Positions 2,057 to 27,675 of a stretch of 28,195 nucleotides of DNA are shown piece by piece. Made by a program: the position numbers and the translations under genes. Each line of letters begins with the position of its first letter. The stretch's first letter is position 1. The notes under the pieces are model-generated. The model was not told the DNA's origin, ran no database searches, and saw only the letters and a list, made by a program, of their open reading frames with translations. The stretch lies in the IMG/VR virus record IMGVR_UViG_3300044233_001111, positions 1 to 28,195 of that record. The stretch is one strand, 5' to 3'. The DNA comes from a virus. Its lineage: Duplodnaviria; Caudoviricetes.

Positions 2057-2058
2057 AT

Positions 2059-2397
2059 ATGAGTGAAGATGATGATATGAAAGCCTATGGTTATGAGGGT
2101 GAGATAATAGCAGTCCTCATACCAAAAGAAAAACAAGAATTAAAAAAACCAAGAAGGTTTAAGGTTATTATTATAAATGATGACTACACACCTATGGAGT
2201 TTGTGGTCGGCATACTTATGACATATTTTAATAAAACAGTAGATGAGGCAGATGCTGTAACTTTGGAGATACACAAAAATGGTAAAGGTATTGCCGGTAT
2301 CTACCCTCTTGAAATCGCAGAAACAAAACTTAGACAGGCAATGAAACTCGCAAGAAAAGAGGAACATCCCCTATCAATCAAACTGGAATCAGAATAA
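2059..2397 (+). CDS. clpS: ATP-dependent Clp protease adaptor ClpS
   Basis: P.RFKVIIINDDYTPMEFVV..L..YF, IH..GKGIAGIY..EIAETK and AR..EHPL...LE are the canonical ClpS signature. Confidence 0.95.
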   Translation: MSEDDDMKAYGYEGEIIAVLIPKEKQELKKPRRFKVIIINDDYTPMEFVVGILMTYFNKTVDEADAVTLEIHKNGKGIAGIYPLEIAETKLRQAMKLARKEEHPLSIKLESE

Positions 2398-8664: not shown

Positions 8665-11600
8665 ATGTCTGAGTTAAAGTCAAAATTTACGAAGAAGGTT
8701 TCTCCTCTTATAGAAGGACAGGTGCCTGACTTTGTTCAAGCAGATCATCCAGTATTCGTGGACTTTGTAAAAGATTACTTTCAGTTCTTAGAAGCTGGTA
8801 AACTTTCTATATCTGGTAATATTGATTATATTGTCCAAGAAACTAAAACTTCTGCTTTTATTTTAGAAGAAACAGATGGTGACAGAATTGTAACAGAGGC
8901 TGCATCTGGTTCTGGTGCAAAGTTCATTAATGGTGAAACGATAACTGGTGGAACAACTGGTGCAACGTCAACTGTTCTGGTAGAGGACTCTAGAAACTCA
9001 CAACTCTTTATCACAGGACAACAACTCTTTGAAACTGGTGAGACTGTAACTGGTGCAACATCTGGTGCTCAAGGTATTGTTACAGAGTATCGTGCAAACC
9101 CGATACAAACCATTCAACAGTTATTAGAATACGCAGACGTTGATAATACTCTATTTGATTTCTTAGATCAAATGCGTGATTCGTTTATGACAGCAATACC
9201 AGAGACACTTGCGTCTGGTGTATCAAAGAGAAATCTAATCAAAAATATTAAAGACTTGTATGCTGCAAAAGGATCATCTGAAGGACACAAACTTTTCATA
9301 AGATTGTTACTTGGTGAAAGTTCTGAGATATTCTATCCCACAGAATATATGTTAAGACTCTCTGATGGTGATTGGAGACAACGAACAATTATGAGAGTCG
9401 CAGCTGGTTCTGGTGTAAGTGGTGATGAAGTAATCAACCAAGTCATAACTGGTCAGACCTCTGGTGCAACAGCAGTCGTTGTTGATTCTCTTGTTTTACA
9501 GCAAGGTGCAACATCTGTTACTGAATTTAGAATCGCAAACATAACAGGGACTTTTGTTGATGGAGAAACAATAGTCGCAAACTCAACAGCAAGAGATGTT
9601 GATGTTACGTTTACCATTGAGGGAATTGTTGCATCTACTGCGCTAGTCAATGATGGTATACTTCACGCAGATAATGAAGATATAGATTTAGAAAATATAG
9701 GAAATGGTTTTGGTGAAATAAAAGTTGATGGTATTGCAGAGGGATCTGTAAGTGAAGTTATAGTAGATGACGTTGGTCAAAAATATGAAGTTGGTGATGT
9801 TCTAACTTTCACTACAAACTCTGCTGATACTAATGTAAGTTCTGCCAGTGGTTTTGTAAGCATGGTTGGTGGTGGTATCCAGTTAGAAACTGCAACACTG
9901 GATGATTCTAGTTTGACCGATGATGCAATTATTTTAGAAAGTGGAACAACCACATCACTTGAATCTTTTAACATTCAGTCAGAGCAAAATGTAGATGATA
10001 GGTTTAGAGGTGATGGTGAGACTCTTGCGTTTACTTTGACGGACGTAAATGCAAATATTGACACAGTGGTGGTCAATATTAATAATGTTCAAACACCATC
10101 AGTAAATGCATCTGGTGTAACAGTATGGACTGCAAGTGGAACTACGTTGACATTTCAAACAGATTTTACTCCAGCACTTGGTGATGAAATTTATGTGTAC
10201 GCAAATAGAAATGATCTAATAATTCTTGACGGAACTAATACTTCTAGTGATAATGCTGGACACAATATTTTAACTGATAGTGTTGAGGAGTTTGCAGATA
10301 CATACACGACTGCGACAGACCAAATTGTTTTAGAGTTTGATACGTTTGAAGATATTTTATCATCATCCACTGAGTCTGGATCAATTCAAAAAGTGCAAGT
10401 TTCTAGTGGTGGTCAAGGTTATACGAAACTACCAACCGTTTCCATTACAACTACAACTGGAACTGGTGCATCACTTCTTGCAACCACAGAAAATATTGGT
10501 GCAGCAAGGTCAATAAAAATCACTGACCCTGGCTTTAACTATGTTGGAACAAATCCACCAGATGCAACTTTTAGAGCTCACTTTGTTCTTAAAGATGTCA
10601 CTGGAACTTTTGCAAACACAAACACTCTTACAACTCATACTGGAACAGTTAAAGGGTTTGATGCAGACACAAATGTTCTTGATACAACATTTGAAAACGT
10701 GGTGAGAGTTGAACAAGAACAAACTGGAACATTTCAAGAGGGAATACAACTAGAGCAAGGTAATCTAGAACATATGCCTGCATCATTTTTACTTGAGGAT
10801 ATTTTAGATTTTGATGATGGTGAAAATATTGTATTAGATGGAACTGAAACATTTACACCACCAGCACAAAATATTACATTTAAAGTTCGTGTTGCTAGAA
10901 ATGCAGCTGACACCGCAAATATTTTCTACGTTAATGATGAACCCCAACCAAGACTGGTTCTTTACGAGGGTAATACTTATTACTTTGACTTATCTGACAG
11001 TTCATTGTACAATGCCAACTCTGCAAAGAACCATCAACTAAGATTTTCTGAAACAGAAAATGGAACACATGGTGGTGGAGTTGCATATGAAACTGGTGTA
11101 ACAACTTCCTCTGCAAATATAGCAGTTGGAACAACTGGTGCATATATTCAGATTGTGGTTGCAACTGGTGCTCCAGTTCTATATTATTATTGTGTCAATC
11201 ATTCTGGTATGGGTAACATTGCTCAGACACCATCATACGAAACTATTGTTCTAAACTCTGGTAGTAATATTCTTTTTAATGCAACACAACATGGCCCAAA
11301 TGTTGCAACAATAAAATTAGAGGATGGGACTCAAGGAAGAAAAGATACAGATAGTATTGTCTTTGAAGATACTGGTAGACCCATTCTTCTTGAAGAGGCA
11401 ATTATAGGAACACTCCAAGATGTTGAGGATAAACTTTTAATTGACAGGTATCAAGAAGATAATACTGGAAACTTCTTCATAGATTTGGAGACTGAGACTG
11501 CTGGTGTGTTTGGTGGTAGACTTGCGACAGAGGACTTTGGTGATTCAATATTATTGAACTCGTCTGCGGCCTCAACAGATGAGGGTAGTAAACTTCTTGG

Positions 11601-13452
11601 TGCAGATGAAACTGGTAATGGTCAGATAACTCTGAATGGAACAGATAGTGACTCAACTGATGCTGATAGTCATATCATAAACGAAAGTGGTATTGATTTC
11701 TCAAATCGCAATGTCACCATTACAGATAGTTCTGGTGCAAGTGGAACTATTGTAACAGCAGATATTGCAACTGGAACAACTGCTGTTGATATCATATCAA
11801 CTGATGCTGGTTCTTATGCTGGTATTGATAGTCTGTTAGGACAAGACTTAATTCGTATACAAGACTCTTATTACTATCAAGATTACTCCTATGAAGTTCA
11901 AGTTGGTGAGGCTTTCTCAACGTATGTGAATGAACTCAAGAAGGCAGTTCACCCTGCTGGTTTCCAACCATTTGGTAGAGTTACAATCGCAACTCTGGTA
12001 TCTGCTGCGATTACGAATACTGCGGCTGGTGTATCTGATTACACTGGTGATAGATTGTTCTCACCGATACTTGCATCTGTCATTGAAACTCTATTCTCAC
12101 AAAGACTACAAATGCGTATTGGTGTTCCTAAGTCTGATAGACACGATGGTCAAATTCCAATCGGAAGTCGTGAAGATCAAATCGTATTGGATGGAACAGA
12201 TGGTTCATCTTCCAATTCTGGTGAGTCTATACTCTATGAAGCCAACACTAGAATGGCAGACGATGACATAACATCTGGTGTAGATTCTGGTGGTGGTCGT
12301 TTGATGTCAGAAACATCCCATGCTCCGTCTGCTGATTATGATGGTGCGGTTGTCAAAGAACAAGTTGTCAGTATTAGTAAGAACCCAATTTACCTAGAAA
12401 GAAATCTTTTACTTCACCTTGCAGAGTTACCTTTTGGAACAAAGAATGGAACTTGTGGTATCGCACTAGAGTCTGGAAGTGGGACTCTTGCAGACGTTCT
12501 CGTTTTGGATGGTCAACTACCACTTGACGAGGGTGATGCGTTTATCGTGATGAATGGAACTGATGCAAGTGGATCTAATGAAGGAGACAATATTGTATTG
12601 AACGGAACTGATACGGATAGTTCAAATGCTGGAGAGAACTTACTTGCAGAATCAATGTTCTTCTCTTTCCCAGTTGGATTTAAGGTCGATGAGAATGATA
12701 GGTTCTTACTAGACTCAAATCACAATGACCAGACAATAACTCTGTCAGATGTTGGTGATATTACTTTTGAAGAAATAAGAAGATTAGATAGAATTAATTT
12801 AAGTGATACCAACGATAGTATAAACTGGGGTGGTGGTGAAGAAGACGGTATCACTTTAGAAAATGCTGGTAATCTTTTATTAGATGGAACTGATAGTTCT
12901 AGTTCTAATGCTGGAAGTCATATCATCCAAGAGACTACATTGAGAAACTATGTGCAGTTAGAAACTTCTGGTGTTATCGTGACAGAGGACTTCTCTACCA
13001 ATTCTAATCAGTCAAGAATATTACTAAATGATGGTGAGGAGATAGTTCTTGAAGATGGTATAAATTCACCAAAACAATCTCATGTGGAATTAGAACTTTC
13101 TGAAATAGATGGTGATATTATTTTAGACGGAACTGATAGTTCTGGATCTAATGCTGGGGATTTCTTAGTCCATGAGGCTTTCCATGATTATAGAGAATCT
13201 GCTAGATTGTTATCAGAATTTCATAACGTGTTTGCATCTGAAGGACATATTCCTCTCGCAAACTTTAGACTAAATAGTAGTAGTAAAGTCACAGTGGGTC
13301 ACGTTCAGGCTGCAGAAATAGTTGTAAGAAGCACTGGAGAGATTGCATTAGAGGATGCAACAGATACAACAAATACAAACACGGAGTATTTGTTAGATGA
13401 AACAAATGGAAATAACATAGATTTAGAGGGTGCAACAGGAATAACCCACTAA
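8665..13452 (+). CDS. gp7: Baseplate wedge initiator gp7-like protein, greatly expanded with inserted domains
   Basis: Position between gp6 and gp8. Q.P.FV..DHP.FV.F.K.Y..FLE, LIKNIKDLY.AKG...G.KL..R.L and IQDSYYYQDYSYEV...Y...LK..VHPAGF..FG are motifs of marine T4-like gp7. Confidence 0.82.
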   Translation: MSELKSKFTKKVSPLIEGQVPDFVQADHPVFVDFVKDYFQFLEAGKLSISGNIDYIVQETKTSAFILEETDGDRIVTEAASGSGAKFINGETITGGTTGATSTVLVEDSRNSQLFITGQQLFETGETVTGATSGAQGIVTEYRANPIQTIQQLLEYADVDNTLFDFLDQMRDSFMTAIPETLASGVSKRNLIKNIKDLYAAKGSSEGHKLFIRLLLGESSEIFYPTEYMLRLSDGDWRQRTIMRVAAGSGVSGDEVINQVITGQTSGATAVVVDSLVLQQGATSVTEFRIANITGTFVDGETIVANSTARDVDVTFTIEGIVASTALVNDGILHADNEDIDLENIGNGFGEIKVDGIAEGSVSEVIVDDVGQKYEVGDVLTFTTNSADTNVSSASGFVSMVGGGIQLETATLDDSSLTDDAIILESGTTTSLESFNIQSEQNVDDRFRGDGETLAFTLTDVNANIDTVVVNINNVQTPSVNASGVTVWTASGTTLTFQTDFTPALGDEIYVYANRNDLIILDGTNTSSDNAGHNILTDSVEEFADTYTTATDQIVLEFDTFEDILSSSTESGSIQKVQVSSGGQGYTKLPTVSITTTTGTGASLLATTENIGAARSIKITDPGFNYVGTNPPDATFRAHFVLKDVTGTFANTNTLTTHTGTVKGFDADTNVLDTTFENVVRVEQEQTGTFQEGIQLEQGNLEHMPASFLLEDILDFDDGENIVLDGTETFTPPAQNITFKVRVARNAADTANIFYVNDEPQPRLVLYEGNTYYFDLSDSSLYNANSAKNHQLRFSETENGTHGGGVAYETGVTTSSANIAVGTTGAYIQIVVATGAPVLYYYCVNHSGMGNIAQTPSYETIVLNSGSNILFNATQHGPNVATIKLEDGTQGRKDTDSIVFEDTGRPILLEEAIIGTLQDVEDKLLIDRYQEDNTGNFFIDLETETAGVFGGRLATEDFGDSILLNSSAASTDEGSKLLGADETGNGQITLNGTDSDSTDADSHIINESGIDFSNRNVTITDSSGASGTIVTADIATGTTAVDIISTDAGSYAGIDSLLGQDLIRIQDSYYYQDYSYEVQVGEAFSTYVNELKKAVHPAGFQPFGRVTIATLVSAAITNTAAGVSDYTGDRLFSPILASVIETLFSQRLQMRIGVPKSDRHDGQIPIGSREDQIVLDGTDGSSSNSGESILYEANTRMADDDITSGVDSGGGRLMSETSHAPSADYDGAVVKEQVVSISKNPIYLERNLLLHLAELPFGTKNGTCGIALESGSGTLADVLVLDGQLPLDEGDAFIVMNGTDASGSNEGDNIVLNGTDTDSSNAGENLLAESMFFSFPVGFKVDENDRFLLDSNHNDQTITLSDVGDITFEEIRRLDRINLSDTNDSINWGGGEEDGITLENAGNLLLDGTDSSSSNAGSHIIQETTLRNYVQLETSGVIVTEDFSTNSNQSRILLNDGEEIVLEDGINSPKQSHVELELSEIDGDIILDGTDSSGSNAGDFLVHEAFHDYRESARLLSEFHNVFASEGHIPLANFRLNSSSKVTVGHVQAAEIVVRSTGEIALEDATDTTNTNTEYLLDETNGNNIDLEGATGITH
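10216..13176 (+). repeat. Dispersed acidic peptide repeat (I/L)-L-(D/N)-G-T-D-x-S-S-S-(N/D)-A-G-x-x-I within gp7
   Basis: Copies near 10216, 11545 (degenerate), 11623, 12178, 12541 (two in tandem), 12871 and 13114, read from the translation. Confidence 0.85.
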
Positions 13453-13461
13453 AACTTTTTG

Positions 13462-13469
13462 TATAAATA
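13462..13469 (+). promoter_or_regulatory. T4-type late promoter TATAAATA
   Basis: Exact consensus in the gp7-gp8 intergenic gap. Confidence 0.8.
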
Positions 13470-13486
13470 AAGTAAAAGGTGTAAAA

Positions 13487-14983
13487 ATGTCGGCAATTAT
13501 TACAGAAAAATTTAGACAACATAATGCTTCACAGTTCGTAGAATCATTTACAGAGGCAGCTGCTTCAACTTATTATTTGTTCTTGGGGAAGGCAACTGCA
13601 TACACCTCAACAACAACTGGTGGAACTGATAGTTCCCCACCAACTCCAAACACGGGCCCAGAGGATGAGTTTCGTGCATGGAGATCAATGTTGGGTGCAA
13701 AACTTATTACGTCCTCTGATGTAAAAAGATCTATTCCTCGTAGGAACTGGTCAAATGGTGCAACCTTTGATATGTATAGACACGATTATTCATCTTCAAA
13801 TACATCCACATCTGGTTCTTCAGACTTATTTGACTCAACCTTTTACTTTATGACCTCTGATTTTAGAGTTTATAAGGTCTTGGATAATAATGGTGGTTCA
13901 GCTTTCTCTGGTTCAGAACCGACATCTGAATCAACTTCACCATTTGCATCTGGTGGATATGTTCTAAAATATATGTACACCATTTCTACTTCAGACTTTT
14001 CAAAGTTTGGAACTACAGACTTCATTCCAGTTGCAACCGACTCAACTGTAAGTGCAGCTGCAACAGATGGTAAGATTGAAAGTCTTGTGGTAACTGCTGG
14101 TTCTGGTTACACAGATGGAACTTACTATGCTGCAGTATTTGGTGATGGAAATAATCAAGGGACAAGTTCTGGTGCGATTGTGAGGATTACAGTTTCAAGT
14201 GGTGCGATTGTTTCTTTTGGATTGACTGCTGGTACTGATACAACTATCCATGCTGGTGGTGCTGCTTATACTTTTGGTTTTGTTAATCTTGGAGATGATT
14301 ATATTTTTAGTGACGCAAGTTTATCATCATCTGCATCATTAGGTGGTGGATCTGGTGGTGCGATAGAAGTCATTATCAGTCCAGATGGTGGACATGGTAG
14401 TGATGCAGTTCAAGAGTTGGGTGGTCACTTTGTGATGCTTGCAACCACACTCACACAGGCAGAGGGTGATGACTTTACAACCGCAAATGATTTTCGTTCA
14501 GTTGGTATCGTTGTAGACCCAACTAACTTTGGAACATCAACAGTCGCAACTGCATCAACTCGTAGACAAACTTACATTGTTAAAGTAGACACTAATAGTG
14601 GGACGTTTGAAGCAGACGAAAGAATTACACAAGCCACCACTGGTGCGGTAGGAAAGGTTGTGGAGTTTGATAGTTCACTAAGTTTACTTTACTATCAACA
14701 AGAGGAGTTCAAAGGATTTGGAACAAATGCAACAACAGGTGGATACGTTGCATTTAGTGGGACAAATCAAATAACTGGTGCATCTTCTGGTGCAACAGGC
14801 ACGACTGCTGGAACGACTGAAACAGTCACACTTGCAAACGCAAATACTGTGACACTTACCTCTGGTTATGCAAACCCAGAGTTAGCTTTCCCAAGTGGAA
14901 ATATTATTTACCTAGAGAATAGAAAACCTATACAACGAGCTTCAGATCAAACTGAAGATATTAAAGTTATAATTGAGTTTTAA
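13487..14983 (+). CDS. gp8: Baseplate wedge subunit gp8
   Basis: MSAIITEKFR..NA..F, YYLFLG, IPR.NW..G..FDMYRHDY, FY.MTSD.RVYK.LDN, GY..KYMYTI, GGHG.D...ELG and G.IIY.ENR.PI.RA.DQTEDIK.IIEF. Confidence 0.93.
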   Translation: MSAIITEKFRQHNASQFVESFTEAAASTYYLFLGKATAYTSTTTGGTDSSPPTPNTGPEDEFRAWRSMLGAKLITSSDVKRSIPRRNWSNGATFDMYRHDYSSSNTSTSGSSDLFDSTFYFMTSDFRVYKVLDNNGGSAFSGSEPTSESTSPFASGGYVLKYMYTISTSDFSKFGTTDFIPVATDSTVSAAATDGKIESLVVTAGSGYTDGTYYAAVFGDGNNQGTSSGAIVRITVSSGAIVSFGLTAGTDTTIHAGGAAYTFGFVNLGDDYIFSDASLSSSASLGGGSGGAIEVIISPDGGHGSDAVQELGGHFVMLATTLTQAEGDDFTTANDFRSVGIVVDPTNFGTSTVATASTRRQTYIVKVDTNSGTFEADERITQATTGAVGKVVEFDSSLSLLYYQQEEFKGFGTNATTGGYVAFSGTNQITGASSGATGTTAGTTETVTLANANTVTLTSGYANPELAFPSGNIIYLENRKPIQRASDQTEDIKVIIEF

Positions 14984-14985
14984 AC

Positions 14986-17900
14986 ATGGCACAACTTACA
15001 GATCTAAACGTATCACCTTACTATGATGATTTTAATAAGAATGACAATTTTCAAAAAGTTCTATTTCGTCCAGGCTTTGCAGTTCAGGCAAGAGAACTAA
15101 CGACACTTCAATCCATACTCACAGATCAGATTGAAAGTCATGGAAAGTTTGTTTTCAAAGAGGGTAGTCAGGTTATTCCTGGCCAGGCTTCTTTTTCAGA
15201 GTCATATTTTTCCTTACAACTTGCGTCAACATTTGCTGGTGAGGATGTTATTTTAAATCAGTTTTTTAATGAAACTTCCCCAGTAACTATAACAGGTTCT
15301 ACTTCTGGTGTCAAAGCACAAGTTGTTGGATTTAAGGCAGGGACTAGCACGACACAACCAATACTATATTATCAATATATACAGTCTGGTAATGATAACG
15401 CAACGGTGGAGTTTTCCGAATCAGAAAACATTACAGCTGATACAACTATTACACATACAACTTCTTATGCAGCTGGTGTTGCTTGTGCAACCACCCACTC
15501 TTCAAATGCATCACAAACTGGTTGTGCTGTCATTGTTGAAGAGGGTATATATTTTATTCGTGGTCAGTTTGTTAGAAATTCAAAACAAACCGTGGTGTTA
15601 AGTGATAATGATCAGACAGTGAGTGCTAGAGTTGGATTTCAAATTGTAGAAGAAATAATCACTCCAGAGGGAGATGCGAGTCTAACAGACAACGCAGCAG
15701 GGACAACAAACTTTGCAGCAAAAGGTGCCCATAGATTAAAAACTACTTTAACTCTTATATCAAAAGATGAAAACTCAACTGAAGATACAGACTTTGTAGA
15801 GATTATGAGAGTTAGAAATGGCAGACAGACCACTCCAGCAAGGTCTACAGAATTTTCTGTTTTAGGAGAGGAAATTGCAAGAAGAACTTTTGATGAATCT
15901 GGTGATTACACAGTCAGACCTTTTCAGTTTGAGTTAAGAGAGTCTGTGGACAATGACTTCAAAGGGAGAACAAACAAAGGTGTTTTCCAAGGTAAAACAG
16001 TAACAGATGATGGCAAAACACCTGATGAATCTTTACTTGCTCTTCGTGTATCACCAGGCAAAGCATTTGTAAGAGGTTTTGAACTTGAAAAAATTGCACC
16101 GACAGATCTTGATTTAAGTAAGGCAAGAGAGTTTGATACAGTCAATGCTAGTATTGCAACCTTTGAATTAGGAAACTTTGTAAAGGTTGATAATCTATAC
16201 GGAACTCCAGACATATCCCAAATATCTGGTGAGTCAACTGCGTATAAAACAGTGGGACTATTTGACTCTGATACTAAAACAAGAGGTGCTGCTGCTGGTA
16301 ATCAAATCGGTGTAGCAAGAGCCCGAGCTCTTGAGTTTGATTCTGGAACTGCTGGACAACAAGACGCACAATATAAACTATTTCTTTTTGATGTAAGAAT
16401 GTTTACAACTTTAACAATTAGTGGTATACCATCTCCAACTCTGACTGCAACTCATACTAATGGTGGTGTTCAAATTAAAGGTGCTACTTCTGGTGCAACT
16501 GGACTTGTGTTTGGTTCTCTTACGTCTGGAACAACTATAACATTGACAAATGTTATTGGTTCTTTTACAACAGGTGAAAAACTGATTGCATCTGACTCTG
16601 CTCTAACTGGTGGTTTAATTGAAATTACTGGTGGGGATGGTTCAACTGATATTACTATTGGTTCAGCCACAACTAGTATCAGAGCTGAGAGATTTGCTGA
16701 CGTAAGACAAGTCTTTATGGATGATGTTGACAGTGGACAAGACTTCACTGCTGACGTAGTTCCAGAACCCACTGGTGAAACTGGACAACTTATTCTTGAT
16801 GGAACTAATGCAACAAATGCTGATGCTGGTGATAACATAATTTTTGAAGAGGGAACTATTAATGCTGGAACAGTATCAGGTGCCTTTGATGTTCTTGGAT
16901 TAGAAGACATAAGAGTTGCACGATTGAAAAGCCCAGAAAAAAATGTTGCACTATTTAAGTTTCCAAAGAACACGATTAAAACTCTTTTGACAGAGACTAA
17001 TAATGGTGTGAGTGACACGCAGTTCACAGTTCGTAGACAGTTTATTGGAACAACAAACTCATCTGGTGTTGTCACATTTACTGCTGGAAGTAATGAAACA
17101 TTCAATGCGTTTGCAGATGCAGACTATACACTTTCAATATTAACTGCTGGTGGTGGAACTGGAGTTCAAGGAGATATTGTAGATTTAGATGGTAAACTTT
17201 CTGGAACTGGAACTGCAAGTTTGACTATCACAGATAACACTATTCTTGGAAATGCAGCTAAGGTAAAAGTAACTGCAACCATATTGAGAACATCTGTTCA
17301 ATCAAAAACAAAAACAACGCAACTATCTAAGCAACTCAAAGTCCTTGCAACTGATGCTGATGGTGCGTTTGGAACAAGAGCAACTGATAAAGAAATATCA
17401 TTAGGTCGTGCAGATGTGTTTAGACTTCAGGCTGTATTTGATTCAGAGGACACATCTTCTGATGCAACCACACCACAGTTTACTATTTCTAATCTTGTAG
17501 GAACTTTTCAAAGAGGAGAAAAAATAACTGGTGGAAGTTCTGGTGCTGTTGCAAGAATTATATCTACAACCTCTCCCATAACCTATGTTCTCACAGGAGC
17601 AGATGGTTCAACAGACTTTACTGCAAGTGAAACTATCACAGGTGCAGCTAGTGGTGCAACAGCAACAGTTGGAACACTCACTGCTGGTAGTAAAGTCATC
17701 ACTAGTAATTTTGTGCTAGATACTGGACAAAGAGATAACTTCTATGATATCGCAAGAATTGTGAGAAAGCCTGGTGTTGCAGAGCCACGAGGTAGACTTC
17801 TTGTAGTTTACGATTTCTTCACACATGGTTCTGGAGATGCGTTTACAGTTGACTCGTATACTGCGAGTGCTGGACAAATGGAGTATGATGATATTCCAAT

Positions 17901-20900: not shown

Positions 20901-21414
20901 ATCAAATGTTTCTCCAGTTATTGATCTTGATAGGTGTTCGATAAATGCGATTGGTAATGTGGTTAATAATATTGATTCTGCATCAGATGTAAATGAAGCT
21001 TTCTTTGCATCAACAGAGCCAGAGGGTGATAACAATGCTGCAGTTTATATTACTAAAAAGATTGCACTTGAAAATCCTGCTACTGCGTTGAAAGTTTTCT
21101 TTGCTGGTAATAAAATTGGAACGTCAGATATTAAAGTATTATTTAAAATACTACGTTCTGACTCTGCTGAGGACTTTGATGAACTGGGATATGAATTTTT
21201 CAACACCACTGGTTTACCAGATCAAACTGTTGCGGCCTCTTTGACCAGAAATGATTTCCAAGAGTATCTTTACACTGCTGGTGTAACAGATGATGGTATT
21301 GGAGAGTCGTTACCAGAGTTCATTGCATTTTCAATTAAGATCGTGTTACAGGCAAGTAATGCTGCCCAACCACCAAGAATTAAGGACTTGCGAGCAATCG
21401 CATTGGCAACGTAA
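14986..21414 (+). CDS. Large virion structural protein, VrlC-like/DUF4815 family
   Basis: LNVSPYYDDF....NF.KVLFRPG.AVQARELT.LQSIL, ARRT.DESGDY.V.PF, R.TMRDIG.L..R...VE..T.LSLLE, RFKSGF.VDNF, DPLAQTF and a P.IKDLRAIALA C-terminus; typical position after gp8 in marine T4-likes. Confidence 0.85.
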   Translation: MAQLTDLNVSPYYDDFNKNDNFQKVLFRPGFAVQARELTTLQSILTDQIESHGKFVFKEGSQVIPGQASFSESYFSLQLASTFAGEDVILNQFFNETSPVTITGSTSGVKAQVVGFKAGTSTTQPILYYQYIQSGNDNATVEFSESENITADTTITHTTSYAAGVACATTHSSNASQTGCAVIVEEGIYFIRGQFVRNSKQTVVLSDNDQTVSARVGFQIVEEIITPEGDASLTDNAAGTTNFAAKGAHRLKTTLTLISKDENSTEDTDFVEIMRVRNGRQTTPARSTEFSVLGEEIARRTFDESGDYTVRPFQFELRESVDNDFKGRTNKGVFQGKTVTDDGKTPDESLLALRVSPGKAFVRGFELEKIAPTDLDLSKAREFDTVNASIATFELGNFVKVDNLYGTPDISQISGESTAYKTVGLFDSDTKTRGAAAGNQIGVARARALEFDSGTAGQQDAQYKLFLFDVRMFTTLTISGIPSPTLTATHTNGGVQIKGATSGATGLVFGSLTSGTTITLTNVIGSFTTGEKLIASDSALTGGLIEITGGDGSTDITIGSATTSIRAERFADVRQVFMDDVDSGQDFTADVVPEPTGETGQLILDGTNATNADAGDNIIFEEGTINAGTVSGAFDVLGLEDIRVARLKSPEKNVALFKFPKNTIKTLLTETNNGVSDTQFTVRRQFIGTTNSSGVVTFTAGSNETFNAFADADYTLSILTAGGGTGVQGDIVDLDGKLSGTGTASLTITDNTILGNAAKVKVTATILRTSVQSKTKTTQLSKQLKVLATDADGAFGTRATDKEISLGRADVFRLQAVFDSEDTSSDATTPQFTISNLVGTFQRGEKITGGSSGAVARIISTTSPITYVLTGADGSTDFTASETITGAASGATATVGTLTAGSKVITSNFVLDTGQRDNFYDIARIVRKPGVAEPRGRLLVVYDFFTHGSGDAFTVDSYTASAGQMEYDDIPIYTASRVDPDEPEPTGVFELRDCFDFRPAVEDIAGASTNLATIDQITGSSFDFFHRQFDGTGASTVDTPKPASNLQADFEFFLGKIVSLFLQKNASFRLVEGISAENPTLPKDVDGALKLATFNLPPFTFQPKDVGIQRFKTQRFTMRDIGRLKDRLEKVESLTALSLLERDAESFEIQDANGLNRFKSGFVVDNFKGHRVGDAVNKDYNVAMDQEKNEMRPKCVLRNAKLIESVSTDAERSAAGYRKTGDLLTLNYTDVELVNQPYATRIENLFPYLAANWVGLIKLTPAGDEWFETEIAPELIINVEGNYDTVLAENRNSIGTVWNSWETQWSGVVSTSNSIFNRTREVVRRTVQTVRTDLTRTGLQTDVVEDIVEESQGFKIISRALIPFIRPRVISFEGEAFLPNTRVYVFFDKQDVNAFVTPLSSDYTSDTTIVAGSPLITTAAGKVEGTFEIPEYRFPGTTQNPKFKTGETEFRITSSSTDERAGKGSATKEPLTAASTTYHAVGILETEQETIIATRNAQVVQTRVSQSTSQTSTTSSERVLFSNDDTDDDSGNDPLAQTFLIEEDGGCFITKIDLFYQLKDNVLPTWVEIRNVINGYPGPKVLPFGRKLLSASEINLSDDGTVPTTFIFDSPVYVQNGNEYCFVLRTTSNNYRAWISQLGEFDVSGSNRVVSEQPHLGTLFKSQNNRTWTPVQAEDMKFKIHRADFSPTTGTITLVNDNIGEAFTAEDGTTTVYGRRLQGNPLTLTNSSTAMRVKHFDHGMYSTSNNVKITGAKSGIETTLNGAITATATSLTLTSNTGFAASNDSSRCYVKIDNEIMFGTLSGSNINSLSRGQDNTTAAAHSNGATVELYQILGTPLTEINKTHTAISAIDMNSYAITLSTAPTISGASTTAEVGRSTVYASENYRLETLRTQISALETSRTGIDATIKTTSGTSPSGSETSFTTATKARGIPLNENFDLDTSRIIASNVNETNELSGAKSLFIDLNLQTSRSNVSPVIDLDRCSINAIGNVVNNIDSASDVNEAFFASTEPEGDNNAAVYITKKIALENPATALKVFFAGNKIGTSDIKVLFKILRSDSAEDFDELGYEFFNTTGLPDQTVAASLTRNDFQEYLYTAGVTDDGIGESLPEFIAFSIKIVLQASNAAQPPRIKDLRAIALAT

Positions 21415-21641
21415 TGAGTAACTTTACTAGAGTAGAAGGACACCAAGATTTAGTAAGAGATAATAAATCTGGTGCAATCATAAATCGTAATCGTAGTGCG
21501 TATGAGATTGCAAAACGAAGAGCAGCAGATGCACAGAAACAAAGAGATGAAATTAGAAGTGCAACTCGTGAGATAAATACTTTGAAATGTGAAATGCACG
21601 AAATAAAAGATATGTTAAAAACTTTACTGGATAGAAACTAA
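21414..21641 (+). CDS. Small hypothetical coiled-coil protein
   Basis: VEGH.DLVRD..SGAIIN followed by a heptad-like helix; coupled by TAATG on both sides. Confidence 0.8.
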   Translation: MSNFTRVEGHQDLVRDNKSGAIINRNRSAYEIAKRRAADAQKQRDEIRSATREINTLKCEMHEIKDMLKTLLDRN

Positions 21642-22564
21642 TGGCAATTACAGCAGCACAGGTAACAACTAATAATAGTCTAGAACAGTTCAGACAAGAG
21701 TTCAACAATCTGCAATCAGATGTTCGTGGACTTGAGTCTGGAACAGTATCGTTTTCAACAGTTGCCACAAATCTTCAATTAATTTTTGAGGGTTCAACTG
21801 CTGATGATAATGAAACTACACTTGGTGTTATAGACCCAACAGCCGACAGAACGATAAATTTACCAAACGAAAGTGGAACTGTATTTCTTTCGGATTCAAC
21901 AAACAATGCTGTTATCACTGGTAAAACAACAATCACCTCTGGTGATGTCACACCAGCAAATGATGAGTTACTACTTAGTGATGCAGATGCAGGCGTTCTT
22001 AAAAGAGTTACAGTAAACAATCTAATCAGTTCTGCTGGTGGACTAACAGCTGTATCAGCAGATTCGACTCCTCAACTTGGAGGCGATTTAGATGTGAACG
22101 GAAACGATATTGTTTCAACATCAAATGGAAACATTGACCTTTTACCAAACGGATCTGGTAAAGTTATCATGGACGGAAATGGTAGCACAGGTGGTGTTCT
22201 TATTTCTGATGGTAGTGTTGAAATCAGATCTGGAACAGGTAGTGTTTCAGAGATTAAGTTTTATTGTGAAGTAAACAACGCACACGCACAAACATTAAAA
22301 GCACAACCACACTCTGCTGGTAGTAGTGCAGTTTTAACATTACCAGTGAATACTGGGACATTGATTGGTTCTGGTGACACAGGGACTTTACCACTTACAG
22401 CTATTGATATAGATGGTGGTACAGATATTAGTGCTGCCCTGTCTACCACTGATTTAATAATCGTTGATGATGGTGCTGGTGGGACAAACAGAAAGGCTGC
22501 ACTATCAAGAGTAGTGACATTGACTGACGATTCGGCAACTGCACTTGCGATTGCTCTAGGATAA
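21641..22564 (+). CDS. Tail-fibre-like structural protein
   Basis: N-terminal helix (LEQFRQEFNNL), fibre-type motifs LIFEG.TADD.ETTL...DPTADRTI.LP..SGT and D.TPQLGGDLDVNG, and a hydrophobic ALAIALG C-terminus. Confidence 0.7.
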   Translation: MAITAAQVTTNNSLEQFRQEFNNLQSDVRGLESGTVSFSTVATNLQLIFEGSTADDNETTLGVIDPTADRTINLPNESGTVFLSDSTNNAVITGKTTITSGDVTPANDELLLSDADAGVLKRVTVNNLISSAGGLTAVSADSTPQLGGDLDVNGNDIVSTSNGNIDLLPNGSGKVIMDGNGSTGGVLISDGSVEIRSGTGSVSEIKFYCEVNNAHAQTLKAQPHSAGSSAVLTLPVNTGTLIGSGDTGTLPLTAIDIDGGTDISAALSTTDLIIVDDGAGGTNRKAALSRVVTLTDDSATALAIALG

Positions 22565-22567
22565 ATA
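22560..22567 (+). promoter_or_regulatory. Possible variant late promoter GATAAATA
   Basis: One mismatch to TATAAATA, overlapping the upstream stop codon, 20 nt before ATG 22588. Confidence 0.35.
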
Positions 22568-22587
22568 TATAAAAAGGAAAGAGAAAA

Positions 22588-22935
22588 ATGGCAAATACAT
22601 TTAAATTAATAACAAAGGCAGGTGTCACAACAGCAGATGTCATTTACACTGTGGCAGGTTCTACAACTACAGTTATTCTAGGGATTATGCTTGGTAACAC
22701 AACAACAAGTCAAGTTACATCAACAGTTACGATAGAGTCAAACACAGGTAGTAGGTCTGGTAATAACGATGAGTCAAATCAAAATGTGGAGTTGGTAACT
22801 AATGCACCCATACCAGCTGGTGCATCACTTGAATTGTTGGCTGGTAACAAAGTTATCATGGAGACAACTGATGTATTAAAACTAACAGCATCTGGGGCAA
22901 CGGATATAGCACTATCAATCATGGAGATAACATAA
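22588..22935 (+). CDS. Small beta-rich hypothetical protein, probably fibre-associated
   Basis: 115-aa ORF (MANTFK...YTV...TT.ILG...N; IPAGASLEL..GNK.IME.TD.LK) with an AAGGA Shine-Dalgarno, in the fibre region. Confidence 0.75.
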   Translation: MANTFKLITKAGVTTADVIYTVAGSTTTVILGIMLGNTTTSQVTSTVTIESNTGSRSGNNDESNQNVELVTNAPIPAGASLELLAGNKVIMETTDVLKLTASGATDIALSIMEIT

Positions 22936-22936
22936 T

Positions 22937-23995
22937 ATGCCTTATATAGGTACAGCTGCTCAAGGGACTTTTGGTACTGGTACAAAAGACAGATTTAGTG
23001 GAAACAATTCCTCTACGTCTTTTACCATGTCTAGAAGTGTGGGTAACGCAAATGATATAGATGTGTTTGTGGAAAATGTTCGTCAAGAACCAACCATTGC
23101 TTACAGTGTATCTGGAACTACTCTTAGTTTTACTGGAACGCCTGCAACTGGTTCTAATAATATCTATGTGGTTCATAAAGCTGCATCTGTCAATGTAGTT
23201 CCACCATCAGGCAGATCCACCGACAATGTTGCAGATTTGCAAGTCACCTCAAGTCTAAGTGGTGAGGATATTTCTGGTACACTTAACAGACCAATAGGAC
23301 TTAACGCAACAGATGGTTCTGCGACTGATGCTGGTGATAGGATTATTCTAAATGGAACTGACAATGGTTCTTCAAACGCAGATGATAGTTTACTTTACGA
23401 AGAAGCAACAGACGATGTTGGTCTGGTAACTGGAACAGCAGTAGACATATTTACCTTTGATGGTAACGCAAAGGTAGAGGGAACTATGAGAGCATCAGCA
23501 ACTGGTGCGATAAAGGTTGAAGGTAACACTGACGATGGTATTCTTATATTAGATGCAAGTGCATCTGGAGTTGACGTTGGAAGTGCGATAGTCTTTGAAG
23601 AGGGAACTGATGATGGTGCTATGGCCTTGTCTGGTGTCACTAGATTATCTAATCTTGAATCTGTGGAAAGAGGTGTTACTGCAAAGACAGAAATCAGTGA
23701 TGGTGGTTCATCTAAGATTCTAGACTTCAACGCAAACCAAAATTTTATAATCAACATGAACGCAAGTTTGACACTAGGACAACCAGTAACAGGTCAAGTT
23801 GGACAAACTGGTTTCATCGTATTTAAACAAGATGCCTCTGGAAGTAGAACACTCACACTCAACTCTGCTTTCAAAAATCCAGGCGGAACTGCACCAACTC
23901 TGACAACGACTGCAAATGGAATTGATGTCATAGGATACATCATATCGTCACCGAATGAGATATTGTTAAGTACGGCACAACTTGCGTTTGCATAA
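22937..23995 (+). CDS. Tail-fibre/adaptor-like protein, 'MPYIG' paralogue 1
   Basis: 352-aa ORF with an N-terminal beta domain, central acidic repeats, and a C-terminal QD..GSRT...GGTAPTLTT domain shared with 26638..27675. Confidence 0.7.
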   Translation: MPYIGTAAQGTFGTGTKDRFSGNNSSTSFTMSRSVGNANDIDVFVENVRQEPTIAYSVSGTTLSFTGTPATGSNNIYVVHKAASVNVVPPSGRSTDNVADLQVTSSLSGEDISGTLNRPIGLNATDGSATDAGDRIILNGTDNGSSNADDSLLYEEATDDVGLVTGTAVDIFTFDGNAKVEGTMRASATGAIKVEGNTDDGILILDASASGVDVGSAIVFEEGTDDGAMALSGVTRLSNLESVERGVTAKTEISDGGSSKILDFNANQNFIINMNASLTLGQPVTGQVGQTGFIVFKQDASGSRTLTLNSAFKNPGGTAPTLTTTANGIDVIGYIISSPNEILLSTAQLAFA

Positions 23996-24008
23996 GGAGT
24001 CATAAATT

Positions 24009-26606
24009 ATGTCAGGCCCATTTGGTTCAACTCCACACAATCTTTTTAATACCACTGCATCAGATTTTTATAATGGTGTGATCAACCAGTCTTTGCGTTT
24101 TGAAGAGGGAGGTACGCACTATCTAGACTTTACTCCAGCACAAGATGGCACAGACAATAAAAGATATACTATTTCTGTATGGCTTAAACTTGCTCAAGAA
24201 AGTTCAGATTTTCGCACTGTATTTTCATCAAAAAATGCTGGTTCTGGAACTGGTCAAGGTCACAATACATATGCCTTTGGTACAGATGATCAGTTTGAAA
24301 CATACACAGAGAATGGTGCTAATAATCCATACACGACAGCCCTATATCGTGATAGAGGTTCGTGGTATAATTTTGTGATTGCGTATGACACAACTCAATC
24401 TACTGCTTCGGATAGGATAAAAATTTATGTGAATGGATCACGAGATACAACTCTTGGTGGATCATCTTTTCCTGGCGAAAATAGTGTAATGTCCTCTGTG
24501 AACACAAATGGTCGGTCACAGCAAATAGGTAAGTATGTGCCAGGCTATACTAGGTATTTTAATGGATACATGGCTGATTTTCACATGATTGATGGTCAAG
24601 CACTAGATGCAAGTTATTTTGGCGAGACGAAAAATGGGATATGGATACCTATAGCGTATGCAGATAATGGAGTAACCAGCCATGGTATTAATGGATATCA
24701 TCTAACATTTCAAGGAACTGGCACCTCAACTACTTCTCAAGGCACCACTGCACAAACAAACATTGGAGATGATCAGTCAGGCAATGGTAATAACTTTGCT
24801 GTGTACAATCTTGCAGCAGGAGATATCGTCCCTGACACGCCAGAGGGAAATTTTGCCACCGCCAACAACCTTGCTGTCAATACATCAAGCCCGTGGACAA
24901 CAAGTGAGGGCAATCTAAAAATTCTTTCAAGCAGTAATAATAAAAATATCAGAGGCAGTTTTTTGATGCAATCTGGTAAATGGTATTGGGAAACAAGGAG
25001 ACACAACGCAAATAATGGAAGCGGACAACTCTCTGATGGAGTAGGTATATCATTAGCAAGTGGTAACATAGAGGACAACCCATATCAAAGCGCAACTAAT
25101 TGGTCATACTATTCTTTCAATGGAAATAAATATAATAACAATTCAAGTTCAAGTTACGGAGATTCATGGAATACAGCGGGAGACATAATTGGTGTTGCAT
25201 TTGATGCTGACAATGGTGCGATTTGGTTTAGTAAAAACGGCACTTGGCAAAATAGCGCAACAGCATCAGAAATAGCTGCTGGCACAACAACCAACGCCGC
25301 ATATACTGGACTAACAGATTCAGAGGGATATGTCTGCAATTGGTGGCGTACAGGTGGCACTAATGCAGAAGAGCTAGACTTAAATTTTGGTCAGAACCCA
25401 TCATTTAATGCAGAGTTAACTGGTGGTGATGTTGGTACTGAATCTGGTGATGGTAACGCACTTTTCAAATATGCACCCCCAACTGGGTTCAAAGCGTTAA
25501 CAACATCTAATATGCCAGATATAACAATCGGCCCGAACAGCACGGAACAGGCTGACGATAATTTTAACACGGTGCTGTATACTGGCGACGGCACGACTAG
25601 TCGCTCAATAACTGGTGTCGGTTTCACCCCCGACTGGATTTGGGGCAAATCTCGCAGCAATGCAGAAGATCATTTTCTGCATGATACAGTGCGAGGTGCG
25701 GGTAAAAAATTAGAGTCAAATAATACTGGTGCAGAAGATACAACTGCAACGGCTGTTATTAGCGCATTTGAGAGTGATGGATTTACTGGCCCGGCATCTA
25801 CGCCAGGTAATATTAATGTCAACACTAGGACATATGTAACGTGGAACTGGAAAGCTGGTGGCAGCGCATCAAGTAACTCCGATGGCAGCAACATCACGTC
25901 AAGCGTATCAGCTAATACTGCCGCTGGATTTAGCATAGTTGCTTATACTGGAACGGGCACTGGTTCACATACGGCTGGGCATGGATTAACTCAAAAACCA
26001 GATTTAGTAATTGTTAAAAACAGAGATGCAGATTCATCACCTAACTATTGGCACGTTAATCACAAAGATTTAACTGCATCTGACTATAATATTTTTCTAA
26101 ATCTTACTAGCGCAGAATCTGATGTGAACACAAACTACGCTGAAGGTGGCATTGGTTTGGGTGATGCAAATGTAATTGACTTTGTAGCTGGTTATAGTGG
26201 AGCAAACAATGTTGCAAACTGTAACAAAAGTGGAAGTGATTACATAGCCTACTGTTTCCACAGTGTTGAGGGCTACTCAAAGTTTGGGCTTTACAAAGGC
26301 AACGCCAATGCTAATGGAGCTTTTGTTTACACAGGGTTTAGGCCAGCTTGGATTATGACCAAAAGGACTGACACCACATCAAACTGGCTTATCATTGATG
26401 TAAAACGTGACATTGATAATGTGGCACATAATCGTTTAATACCTAATTTGTCTAATACTGAAGCAACAAGCGTTGCCGCTACAATGGATATTTTAAGCAA
26501 TGGCTTTAAACGCAGAGATACAAATGTAGATGTAAATGCATCAGGCGGAACCTACATCTACCTCGCCTTTGCCGAACAGCCGTTTAAATTTTCTAATAGT
26601 CGATAA
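24009..26606 (+). CDS. Putative receptor-binding protein with a ConA/LamG-like domain, a SPRY-like domain and three C-terminal repeats
   Basis: YTISVWLK...WYNFVIAYD...KIYVNG...IG...YFNGYMADF..IDG (LamG-like); SGKWYWE...GDIIGVAFDADNG.IWF.KNG.W (SPRY-like); three Y.G.G...G..P.....K.R repeats. AAGGAG Shine-Dalgarno. Confidence 0.75.
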   Translation: MSGPFGSTPHNLFNTTASDFYNGVINQSLRFEEGGTHYLDFTPAQDGTDNKRYTISVWLKLAQESSDFRTVFSSKNAGSGTGQGHNTYAFGTDDQFETYTENGANNPYTTALYRDRGSWYNFVIAYDTTQSTASDRIKIYVNGSRDTTLGGSSFPGENSVMSSVNTNGRSQQIGKYVPGYTRYFNGYMADFHMIDGQALDASYFGETKNGIWIPIAYADNGVTSHGINGYHLTFQGTGTSTTSQGTTAQTNIGDDQSGNGNNFAVYNLAAGDIVPDTPEGNFATANNLAVNTSSPWTTSEGNLKILSSSNNKNIRGSFLMQSGKWYWETRRHNANNGSGQLSDGVGISLASGNIEDNPYQSATNWSYYSFNGNKYNNNSSSSYGDSWNTAGDIIGVAFDADNGAIWFSKNGTWQNSATASEIAAGTTTNAAYTGLTDSEGYVCNWWRTGGTNAEELDLNFGQNPSFNAELTGGDVGTESGDGNALFKYAPPTGFKALTTSNMPDITIGPNSTEQADDNFNTVLYTGDGTTSRSITGVGFTPDWIWGKSRSNAEDHFLHDTVRGAGKKLESNNTGAEDTTATAVISAFESDGFTGPASTPGNINVNTRTYVTWNWKAGGSASSNSDGSNITSSVSANTAAGFSIVAYTGTGTGSHTAGHGLTQKPDLVIVKNRDADSSPNYWHVNHKDLTASDYNIFLNLTSAESDVNTNYAEGGIGLGDANVIDFVAGYSGANNVANCNKSGSDYIAYCFHSVEGYSKFGLYKGNANANGAFVYTGFRPAWIMTKRTDTTSNWLIIDVKRDIDNVAHNRLIPNLSNTEATSVAATMDILSNGFKRRDTNVDVNASGGTYIYLAFAEQPFKFSNSR

Positions 26607-26611
26607 GATAT

Positions 26612-26619
26612 TATAAATA
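26612..26619 (+). promoter_or_regulatory. T4-type late promoter TATAAATA
   Basis: Exact consensus upstream of ORF 26638. Confidence 0.8.
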
Positions 26620-26637
26620 AAGTAAAAGGAAAATAAT

Positions 26638-27675
26638 ATGCCATATATAGGACAAGGTGCAGATGGATTTGGGATACGAAGGAGATTTTTCTTTACTGCT
26701 TCTGCTGGTGATACCAGTGTAAGTGGTACAGATAATAATGGCCTTACGTTAGCATTTACTGATGGTTCATTGGTAGACGTTTTTTTAAATGGTGTATTAC
26801 TTGATCCTAATTCAGATTATAATACGTCCACTACAAACACAATAGGAAGTATTGCTTCACTTGCACTAAATGATTTTATAGAGGTGATAGTATATGATGT
26901 GTTTGCAGTTGGTGATGCTGTATCTGCATCAACTGGTGGTACGTTCAATTCTGGGATAAGTGTTACTGGAAGTATCACTGCAACCACAGACATAACTGCA
27001 ACTGGGGGAATGTCTGCACAGTCAGAGGATGTTTTTCAAAATCGTAGAATACAAATAAATGCATCTGCGAATGATACTGATGAGGGTTCTTTTTTACTGT
27101 TAGATAGAACAGATAGTGGTGGATCAGATGCTGGAGAAAATATAGTTTTTGAAGGAGACACACTCTTCTTAACAACAACAAAAGAAGATGACTTTATTGT
27201 TTTAGAGGATAATGATACACAAGGATTTCTAAATCTAGAAACTTCATTTAAATTTAAGGCAGAGGATAACACAGTATCAACGACAGATGGTCTGACAATT
27301 ACTGGTGCAGCAGAGATACCAAATATAAGAACACATACAAACTTTGATGCTGGTGCATCACAAGACATTAAAGATTTAGGAAGTTCAACTGGAACAGTAG
27401 TTTTAGATTTGAATGAAAATGCTAACTTTCAAATTACTTTAACTGGTAATCTAACTTTAGCAAATCCAACATCACTTACTGCTGGTACGTCTGGTAGTAT
27501 ATTTTTAATACAAGATGGAACTGGGAGTAGGACAGCCACTTTTGGTAGTTCTTTTGATTTTATAGGTGGCACTGCACCGACATTAACAACAGCAGCAAGT
27601 TCAGTGGACAGACTTGACTATATAGTGTTAGATGCTAGTAATATACACGCAGTCGCCACACTTGCGTATTCATAG
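26638..27675 (+). CDS. Tail-fibre/adaptor-like protein, 'MPYIG' paralogue 2
   Basis: 345-aa ORF with the same three-part layout as 22937..23995. Confidence 0.7.
   Translation: MPYIGQGADGFGIRRRFFFTASAGDTSVSGTDNNGLTLAFTDGSLVDVFLNGVLLDPNSDYNTSTTNTIGSIASLALNDFIEVIVYDVFAVGDAVSASTGGTFNSGISVTGSITATTDITATGGMSAQSEDVFQNRRIQINASANDTDEGSFLLLDRTDSGGSDAGENIVFEGDTLFLTTTKEDDFIVLEDNDTQGFLNLETSFKFKAEDNTVSTTDGLTITGAAEIPNIRTHTNFDAGASQDIKDLGSSTGTVVLDLNENANFQITLTGNLTLANPTSLTAGTSGSIFLIQDGTGSRTATFGSSFDFIGGTAPTLTTAASSVDRLDYIVLDASNIHAVATLAYS

What the first reader, a model, noticed from the sequence alone, without database searches (positions are those of the whole stretch)
10216..27160. One acidic peptide motif spread across four different virion proteins: a candidate docking or ion-binding code
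Seen: consensus (I/L)-L-(D/N)-G-T-D-x-S-x-S-(N/D)-A-G-(D/E/S)-x-I-x-x-E. It occurs about eight times in gp7 (e.g. IVLDGTDGSSSNSGESILYE 12181, LLLDGTDSSSSNAGSHIIQE 12874, IILDGTDSSGSNAGDFLVHE 13117), once in the VrlC-like protein (LILDGTNATNADAGDNIIFEEGT, about 16789), three times in 22937..23995 (about 23294-23410 and 23542-23610) and twice in 26638..27675 (about 27049-27160). Many short I-x-L-E-(D/S)-G half-motifs accompany it, including at the gp7 C-terminus. The motif sits as an insertion between otherwise recognisable domains. Inference: a short linear motif that recruits a common partner (decoration protein, fibre or chaperone) at many sites, binds Ca2+/Mg2+, or marks modification/cleavage sites. 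I know of no description of it but cannot confirm novelty.
Basis: partly seen in the sequence, partly recalled or inferred. Interest (0 to 1): 0.75.

Follow-up and report, generated by a model that had tools for sequence, protein, structure and literature searches.

The report
Three-strand plug for phage spikes
A short acidic peptide, repeated in several tail proteins of this marine phage and its relatives and often arranged as three short strands, is predicted to wrap around the three-fold base of a small spike protein, so it likely works as a portable plug for mounting many spikes on the virus particle.

Summary
The motif is real (9 core copies against 0.05 in shuffles) and matches no Pfam or PDB entry. 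It is confined to virion-module proteins: gp7, VrlC, fibres and, in relatives, sheath and neck. A candidate socket is a small trimeric spike starting with a K-I-[ST]-x-L cap, whose gene lies beside tag-bearing genes (28 of 108 against 11 of 424). A folded complex of the window's gp7 cassette with that trimer scored 0.73, best control 0.02, each strand pairing with a different subunit. Binding is predicted, not measured; the window is a fragment without the cap gene, so a relative's spike stood in. The scan noted this motif (e1-9757322) and the tag-cap pairing (e1-5773901, e1-5984904, e1-9783801) on other DNA; the three-strand rule and the model are added here. Not found in print in nine searches.

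The parts
8665..13452 (+). gp7-like baseplate wedge protein (1595 aa), main tag carrier
   Evidence: PF23786, phrog_2885/17744; between gp6 and gp8
8830..8898 (+). gp7 N-terminal three-strand tag, short-loop form (residues 56-78)
   Evidence: same site carries tags in orthologues
9877..9984 (+). gp7 three-strand tag, short-loop form (405-440)
10219..10338 (+). gp7 tag with one long loop; third strand 19 residues on (519-558)
10702..10842 (+). gp7 run of about five strands (680-726)
11245..11685 (+). gp7 long array of strands incl. copies at 962 and 988 (861-1007)
12181..12312 (+). gp7 long-loop copy at 1173, possible third strand at 1213
12544..12651 (+). gp7 three-strand tag with two long loops (1294-1329); the cassette used in the complex
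12850..12933 (+). gp7 three-strand tag, one short and one long loop (1396-1423)
12952..13176 (+). gp7 run of about seven strands ending in the copy at 1485 (not a multiple of three)
13342..13428 (+). gp7 C-terminal three-strand tag (1560-1588)
16789..16905 (+). tag inserted in VrlC-like protein (602-640); orthologues carry long- or short-loop forms here
23294..23401 (+). three-strand tag in fibre-like ORF 22937-23995 (120-155)
23510..23599 (+). second, degenerate three-strand tag in ORF 22937-23995 (192-221)
27049..27153 (+). three-strand tag in fibre-like ORF 26638-27675 (138-172)
27196..27264 (+). possible second short-loop tag in ORF 26638-27675 (187-209)
   Evidence: third strand weak

Best explanation
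The motif is the long-loop form of a portable acidic tag, often made of three short strands, that is predicted to wrap around the N-terminal cap of a trimeric phage spike, one strand per subunit, and so likely mounts spikes on baseplate, fibres, sheath and neck. Shown: the tag, its insertion into unrelated virion proteins, three strands in all sheath insertions, interchange of long and short loops at one site, and the gene-neighbour link to K-I-[ST]-x-L caps. Predicted: the tag is unfolded alone and folds on the trimer; each strand pairs with cap residues K4-K5-I6 of one subunit while H23 and T31-K35 (invariant N34) of a neighbour touch the L-[DN]-G-T turn, which would join one chain to a three-fold partner. 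Inferred: the window's phage encodes such a spike outside this fragment; gp7 could carry about a dozen; the spike heads (XD/gp9-type jelly roll, up to four paralogues with different heads) likely serve adhesion or further branching.
For: Complex of the window's gp7 cassette with the spike trimer of locus L235: score 0.73 in 3 runs, best of 3 controls 0.02; runs share at least 92% of contacts; tag pLDDT at least 79, but 26 when the spike is replaced; the mark was reached by 116 of 157 solved complexes and 2 of 215 mismatched pairs, counts that hold only roughly for this job. Contacts fall on invariant cap residues (K5, T7, L9, H23, T31, P32, N34, K35). Three strands in 66 of 66 distinct sheath insertions against 0.2% of shuffles, noticed before the complex was folded. 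Insertion has pLDDT about 50 in the sheath model. In 80 loci picked by the cap only, tags pile up in the next genes (-1 kb 15 of 78, +1 kb 13 of 66, 1 hit in bins -10 to -3 kb); in 26 of them the cap gene follows a gp6-sized gene, usually ahead of a gp7-like gene. In unrelated phages picked by a generic cap pattern, 28 of 108 have a three-strand tag within 300 nt upstream, against 11 of 424 and 1 of 98 other gene starts. The marine cap matches 6 of 50,697 phage records, all Melnitz or HTVC008M, and both carry tags in gp7 and gp14; contig G008 holds both. Spike head matches trimeric XD/gp9-type domains (Z 11.6, rmsd 1.9, 89 aligned).
Against: No binding was measured. The window has no cap gene and none was seen in 10 tag-bearing fragments (7-55% complete), so the partner is a stand-in. 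The strict strand rule was fixed after a looser one gave three strands in 44 of 68; the 66 insertions trace to about two origins. VrlC gives three strands in 7 of 18, two in 9, one in 2; some gp7 runs have 4, 5 or 7 strands. 80 of 108 generic caps have no strict tag upstream. P-HM2 has a diverged cap with no tag found beside it or in 72 kb scanned. Mosig has tags but no cap match; its record also lacks recA and helicase. Gene neighbourhood partly reflects structural genes clustering.
Confidence: 0.75

Rival explanations
1. The motif is a Ca2+/Mg2+-binding loop that stiffens or charges the virion surface without a protein partner.
For: D/N interchange at positions 4, 7 and 12 and a fixed-length G-T-D...[ND]-A-G-D loop; marine habitat; unfolded when modelled alone without ions.
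Against: 0 of 162 copies fit EF-hand, DxDxDG, RTX or Asp-box patterns (patterns recalled). Long loops are replaced by short ones at the same site. Explains neither the groups of three nor the link to cap genes. Ion binding could still be an add-on to docking.
Confidence: 0.1
2. Tags bind each other, cross-linking baseplate, fibres and sheath (for instance parking fibres on the sheath).
For: Tags sit on fibres and on the sheath alike; strands are amphipathic.
Against: Strongly acidic; not folded in the sheath model or beside an unrelated protein; single C-terminal tags stand just upstream of cap genes in unrelated phages. Self-association itself was not modelled.
Confidence: 0.05
3. The motif marks cleavage (T4 gp21-type I/L-x-E sites) or glycosylation.
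For: Many strands end in hydrophobic-x-E; S/T-rich loops; N-x-S/T in 81 of 162 copies; pelagimyophages carry glycosyltransferases (PMC7029224, passages).
Against: D or N replaces E in the first strand and D replaces N in 59% of copies; bacterial sequon in 1 of 162; carriers are tail proteins outside the prohead, and a cut inside the sheath would be harmful (established T4 assembly, recalled).
Confidence: 0.05
4. A selfish or neutral DNA repeat that inserts in frame (like Rickettsia palindromic elements) into tolerant loops.
For: Clean in-frame insertions; identical codons somewhat above expectation, 343 against 281 of 699; one pair 82% identical.
Against: No shared hairpin or palindrome; most copies 60-68% identical in DNA; only on the coding frame of virion genes, none in intergenic DNA or enzymes among 165 carriers.
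Confidence: 0.03

Closest known systems
crAss001 tail fibre gp22 docking on the gp38/gp39 hub (PMC10172136, passages; PDB 7QOJ)
   Same: A trimeric fibre is attached by its N-terminus to a dedicated site; gp22 residues 28-57 weakly match the second half of the cap profile (E 0.45).
   Different: There a folded A2B hub receives fibre residues 1-26; here a single, otherwise unfolded linear tag is predicted to wrap the trimer and is portable between proteins.
SU10/T7 adaptor fibre-dock loops (PMC9509320, passages)
   Same: Loops of a non-trimeric virion protein grip a trimeric fibre asymmetrically.
   Different: Two adaptor subunits and a folded dock domain are used at one fixed site; no repeated sequence tag.
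Branched tailspike complex of Ackermannviridae, XD domains of CBA120 TSP4 (PMC11414711, listing and abstract start; PDB 7REJ)
   Same: The spike head has the XD/T4 gp9-gp10 fold (Z 10.1, rmsd 2.6, 93 aligned); modular mounting of several host-binding trimers.
   Different: There folded domains dock on folded domains; here the attachment is predicted at the cap, and the XD domain is the free end.
Donor-strand complementation and beta-augmentation (chaperone-usher pili; recalled)
   Same: A peptide strand adds to a partner's sheet and folds on binding.
   Different: Three strands from one chain engage three subunits of a homotrimer; no incomplete Ig fold.
Acidic tag plus 'KISxL' cap joint of earlier scan notes (e1-5773901, e1-5984904, e1-9783801); same motif in e1-9757322
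   Same: Same kind of cap and tag, same tail-then-cap gene order (retested).
   Different: Here one or a few free spikes appear to serve many internal tags across the virion; the three-strand rule, the long-loop form and a controlled complex model are added. These are unpublished AI notes.

Membership tests
EF-hand / DxDxDG calcium loop | D-x-[DN]-x-[DNS]-G loop with hydrophobic residue 8 and acidic residue 12 | tested here: not met
   0 of 162 copies (pattern recalled); no Pfam hit
RTX nonapeptide repeat | G-G-x-G-x-D-x-[LIF] repeats | tested here: not met
   0 of 162 (pattern recalled)
Asp-box | S-x-D-x-G-x-T-W hairpin | tested here: not met
   0 of 162 (pattern recalled)
Any calcium-binding motif | measured ion binding | not testable with these tools
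   needs ITC or a structure with ions
Rickettsia-type palindromic in-frame element | conserved DNA palindrome, also in non-coding DNA and unrelated genes | tested here: not met
   no shared hairpin; carriers are virion-module proteins only
T4 gp21 cleavage site | strict E after I/L-x, in head proteins (recalled) | tested here: not met
   D/N at that place in the first strand; carriers are baseplate, sheath, neck and fibre proteins
crAss001 gp22-hub joint | folded A2B hub receiving the fibre N-terminus | tested here: inconclusive
   only a weak sequence match to gp22 28-57; cap alone was not folded and searched
XD / T4 gp9-gp10 jelly roll (spike head) | fold | tested here: met
   Foldseek E 4e-5 to TSP4; Z 8.6-11.6 for five phage chains; Atlas leads PF25692, PF26209, PF07880
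XD / T4 gp9-gp10 jelly roll (spike head) | homotrimer in the virion | tested here: inconclusive
   trimer modelled with pLDDT 86-88; virion presence not testable
Tag plus KISxL cap joint (scan notes) | acidic tag encoded next to a cap-bearing gene | tested here: met
   29 of 80 marine cap loci within 2 kb; 28 of 108 generic caps
Tag plus KISxL cap joint (scan notes) | cap gene in the same genome as the window's tags | tested here: inconclusive
   window and near-identical contigs are fragments; met in HTVC008M, Melnitz and G008
Tag plus KISxL cap joint (scan notes) | physical binding | tested here: inconclusive
   model supports it (0.73 against 0.02); not measured
Marine T4-like myophages (HTVC008M/Melnitz group) | gp25-gp6-gp7-gp8-VrlC order and gp8 similarity | tested here: met
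   gp8 60% to Melnitz, 46% Mosig, 41% HTVC008M, 33% cyanophages

The most novel reading that the evidence does not exclude
Tailed phages share a general, genetically portable plug-and-socket code: a 20-45 residue three-strand tag, insertable into any exposed loop, captures any trimer that starts with a K-I-[ST]-x-L cap. This marine group has spread it over baseplate, sheath, neck, fibres and perhaps head, coating the particle with tens to hundreds of exchangeable spikes whose number is set by tag copy number.
Probability: 0.5. Interest if true: 0.85.

Novelty: new variant of a known kind. Interest (0 to 1): 0.75.

Why it matters
It would give a function to the acidic repeats and 'hypothetical' small genes of abundant ocean myophages, including the cultured SAR11 phage HTVC008M and OM43 phage Melnitz, and explain how one chain anchors a three-fold fibre. 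It makes attachment sites of flexible fibres predictable from sequence across many unrelated phages, and suggests a short tag for displaying trimeric proteins. It can be tested at once with a peptide and a 150-residue protein.

Tried and rejected
Family and structure look-ups found nothing for the motif: Pfam, PDB sequences, ESM Atlas. For the cap: PDB (weak gp22 match in 115), Pfam, PHROGs only scattered weak hits. Folding the tag inside the sheath gave no structure. The 'longer' protein search returned only gp7-sized, motif-rich proteins in its top 120, so it did not test other carriers. Mosig as a negative control failed: it has tags and its record lacks the region expected to hold the cap gene. 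Searches for the cap in 10 tag-bearing fragments were empty and uninformative. The sheath tree reported 4 changes, but 4 rows were mislabelled; corrected by reading, there are two insertion-bearing clades. Internal modules of ORF 21641 resemble the second half of the cap only weakly (7 bits; hhalign probability 5%) and were not taken as the partner. Paper searches gave no description; one search was swamped by an unrelated word.

Full report
Setting. The window is a 28 kb fragment of a marine T4-like myophage: gp5, PAAR, gp25, gp6, gp7, gp8, VrlC and fibre-like genes. The nearest cultured phages by gp8 are Melnitz (60%), Mosig (46%) and HTVC008M (41%).

Observation. A DNA-pattern scan of viral contigs returned 146 stretches (about 470 estimated). 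Of 116 carrier ORFs in the 141 loci then on file, 61 were gp7; others were VrlC, tail sheath, neck gp14, fibre-like and small unknown proteins. A profile hit 165 of 2932 ORFs and none of the reversed ones. Among 1.84 billion representatives 485 matched at E<=0.001; of the best 150, 100 were gp7, 20 other families from these structural loci and 30 unassigned, mostly fibre-like starts or fragments, one probably a false hit. In all of Melnitz and Mosig as deposited and 100 of 147 kb of HTVC008M the long form occurs only in HTVC008M gp7, four times. No Pfam, PDB or Atlas match was found. DNA copies share no hairpin and only a modest excess of identical codons.

Anatomy. In the sheath the motif is a clean in-frame insertion at one site, present in some relatives and absent in others; the model has the T4 sheath fold and leaves the insertion at pLDDT about 50. 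All 66 distinct sheath insertions have three such strands (0.2% of shuffles). Caveats: the strict rule was set after a looser one gave 44 of 68; the insertions fall into two clades once four mislabelled rows are corrected; VrlC gives three in 7 of 18, two in 9, one in 2; window gp7 also has runs of 4, 5 and 7. Clear triples in the window lie at gp7 56, 405, 1294, 1396, 1560 and in both fibre-like ORFs.

Partner. Earlier scan notes pointed to fibres starting with a 'KISxL' cap; I tested that lead. Melnitz gp25, HTVC008M gp136 and locus L052 encode a small protein starting with such a cap. It is common (549 of 601 candidate stretches confirmed), its first 52 residues are 82% conserved, and its head has the trimeric XD/gp9 fold. 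Among 50,697 phage records it matches only Melnitz and HTVC008M, both of which carry three-strand tags in gp7 and gp14; contig G008 holds the cap gene and a gp7 with six motif matches. In 80 loci chosen by the cap alone, tags lie within 2 kb in 29 and almost nowhere else upstream; these loci form few lineages. In 26 the cap gene follows a 621-622 aa gene that I read as gp6 and mostly precedes a gp7-like gene (read from size and N-termini, not profile-tested). In unrelated phages chosen by a generic cap pattern, 28 of 108 distinct caps have a strict three-strand tag in the 300 nt upstream, 0 inside the cap gene and 1 on the other strand, against 11 of 424 and 1 of 98 other gene starts; a looser listing gave 48 tail segments from 110 caps, 34 with three strands.

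Model. The window's gp7 cassette (12529-12666, 46-row alignment) was folded with three copies of the L235 spike (65 rows): score 0.73 in three runs, best of three controls 0.02, at least 92% contact agreement, tag pLDDT at least 79 and 26 beside an unrelated protein. The mark was reached by 116 of 157 solved and 2 of 215 mismatched pairs, counts that hold only roughly here. Strands at 6-7, 23-25 and 38-39 each contact residues 4-7 of a different subunit, and N34 and its neighbours contact the L-N-G-T turn. This matches the three-strand count and the invariant cap columns. It is a prediction. No like complex was found by sequence in PDB apart from a weak match of the cap to crAss001 gp22, but the cap was not searched by fold, so memory of a solved complex is not excluded.

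Against. The window and ten tag-bearing fragments show no cap gene. Mosig has short tags but no cap match; only 5 of 27 Melnitz genes around that region are found in its record, recA and helicase not among them, so I read it as a gap. Three cyanophages show no tags in the stretches scanned; S-ShM2 has no cap, but P-HM2 has a diverged cap on a 533 aa fibre with no tag found. Most generic caps lack a strict upstream tag.

Rivals. Recalled calcium patterns fit 0 of 162 copies, but ion binding by the conserved long loop remains possible alongside docking. Cleavage, glycosylation, self-association and a selfish DNA repeat fit worse (see rivals).

Literature. Passages read: PMC7029224 (pelagimyophage genomes; 'motif' 0 times), PMC9004378 (Melnitz; 'spike' 0 times), PMC9509320, PMC10172136, PMC12810830 (P1 fibres anchored on gp16, unresolved). 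PMC11414711 was seen as listing and abstract start only. Nine searches found no description of tag or cap; subscription journals and all supplements were not seen and may bear on this. T4 gp21 specificity, calcium patterns and donor-strand complementation are recalled.

Verdict. A real, portable virion tag, likely the plug of a plug-and-socket joint for trimeric spikes (confidence 0.75). Fibre docking joints are known, but this tag-cap pair has no family, structure or paper that I could find; the scan has met it before on other DNA.

Noticed in passing
L239:7900-10477, L259, L262, L263: Up to four tandem genes share the cap but carry different heads: a possible set of exchangeable spikes.
   Followed up: partly
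L235:1335-2324; L144:19824-20366; L147:41768-42358: The gene upstream of the cap gene (annotated 'S-layer' protein, phrog_11617) carries tags in some relatives and none in Melnitz or HTVC008M; it may be a head or tail decoration.
   Followed up: partly
L226-L264, gene downstream of the cap gene: Starts with a peptide like the T4 capsid-targeting sequence (recalled; see e1-9911509), placing the cap gene in a cluster of virion genes.
   Followed up: no
MT647606.1 (L430-L432): The Mosig record, labelled complete, shows no recA or helicase match and has partial genes at both ends; a stretch is probably missing.
   Followed up: yes
NC_020484.1 33435-36485: HTVC008M gp7 is annotated 'head closure Hc2'; PHROG 3465 and 460 also hit window gp7, probably partly through shared tags.
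   Followed up: partly
window 21914-22024 and 22403-22513: Internal modules in ORF 21641 weakly resemble the second half of the cap, suggesting the cap derives from a fibre repeat.
   Followed up: partly
window 22937, 26638 (gene starts) and 22588-22935: Both fibre-like ORFs begin with M-P-Y-I-G, as do several Melnitz fibre genes, next to a 115 aa adaptor-like gene: probably a second, separate docking code.
   Followed up: no
window 8933-9480, 14767-14809, 16474-16514, 17516-17673: A second repeat (G-E-T-I-T-G-x-T-S-G-A-T-A type) is shared by gp7, gp8 and VrlC.
   Followed up: no
window 4714-6264: 516 aa ORF between PAAR and gp25 with no PHROG match and a coiled-coil-like start.
   Followed up: no
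window 3-2397: Four small genes that read like 2OG-Fe(II) oxygenases (two 72% alike in DNA) and a ClpS-like gene; labels from sequence inspection only.
   Followed up: no
L041:1259-1864, L161:8879-9346, L068:17383-18198: Tags also occur in small unannotated proteins (gp5.1-like, one near the portal gene, one near PAAR).
   Followed up: partly
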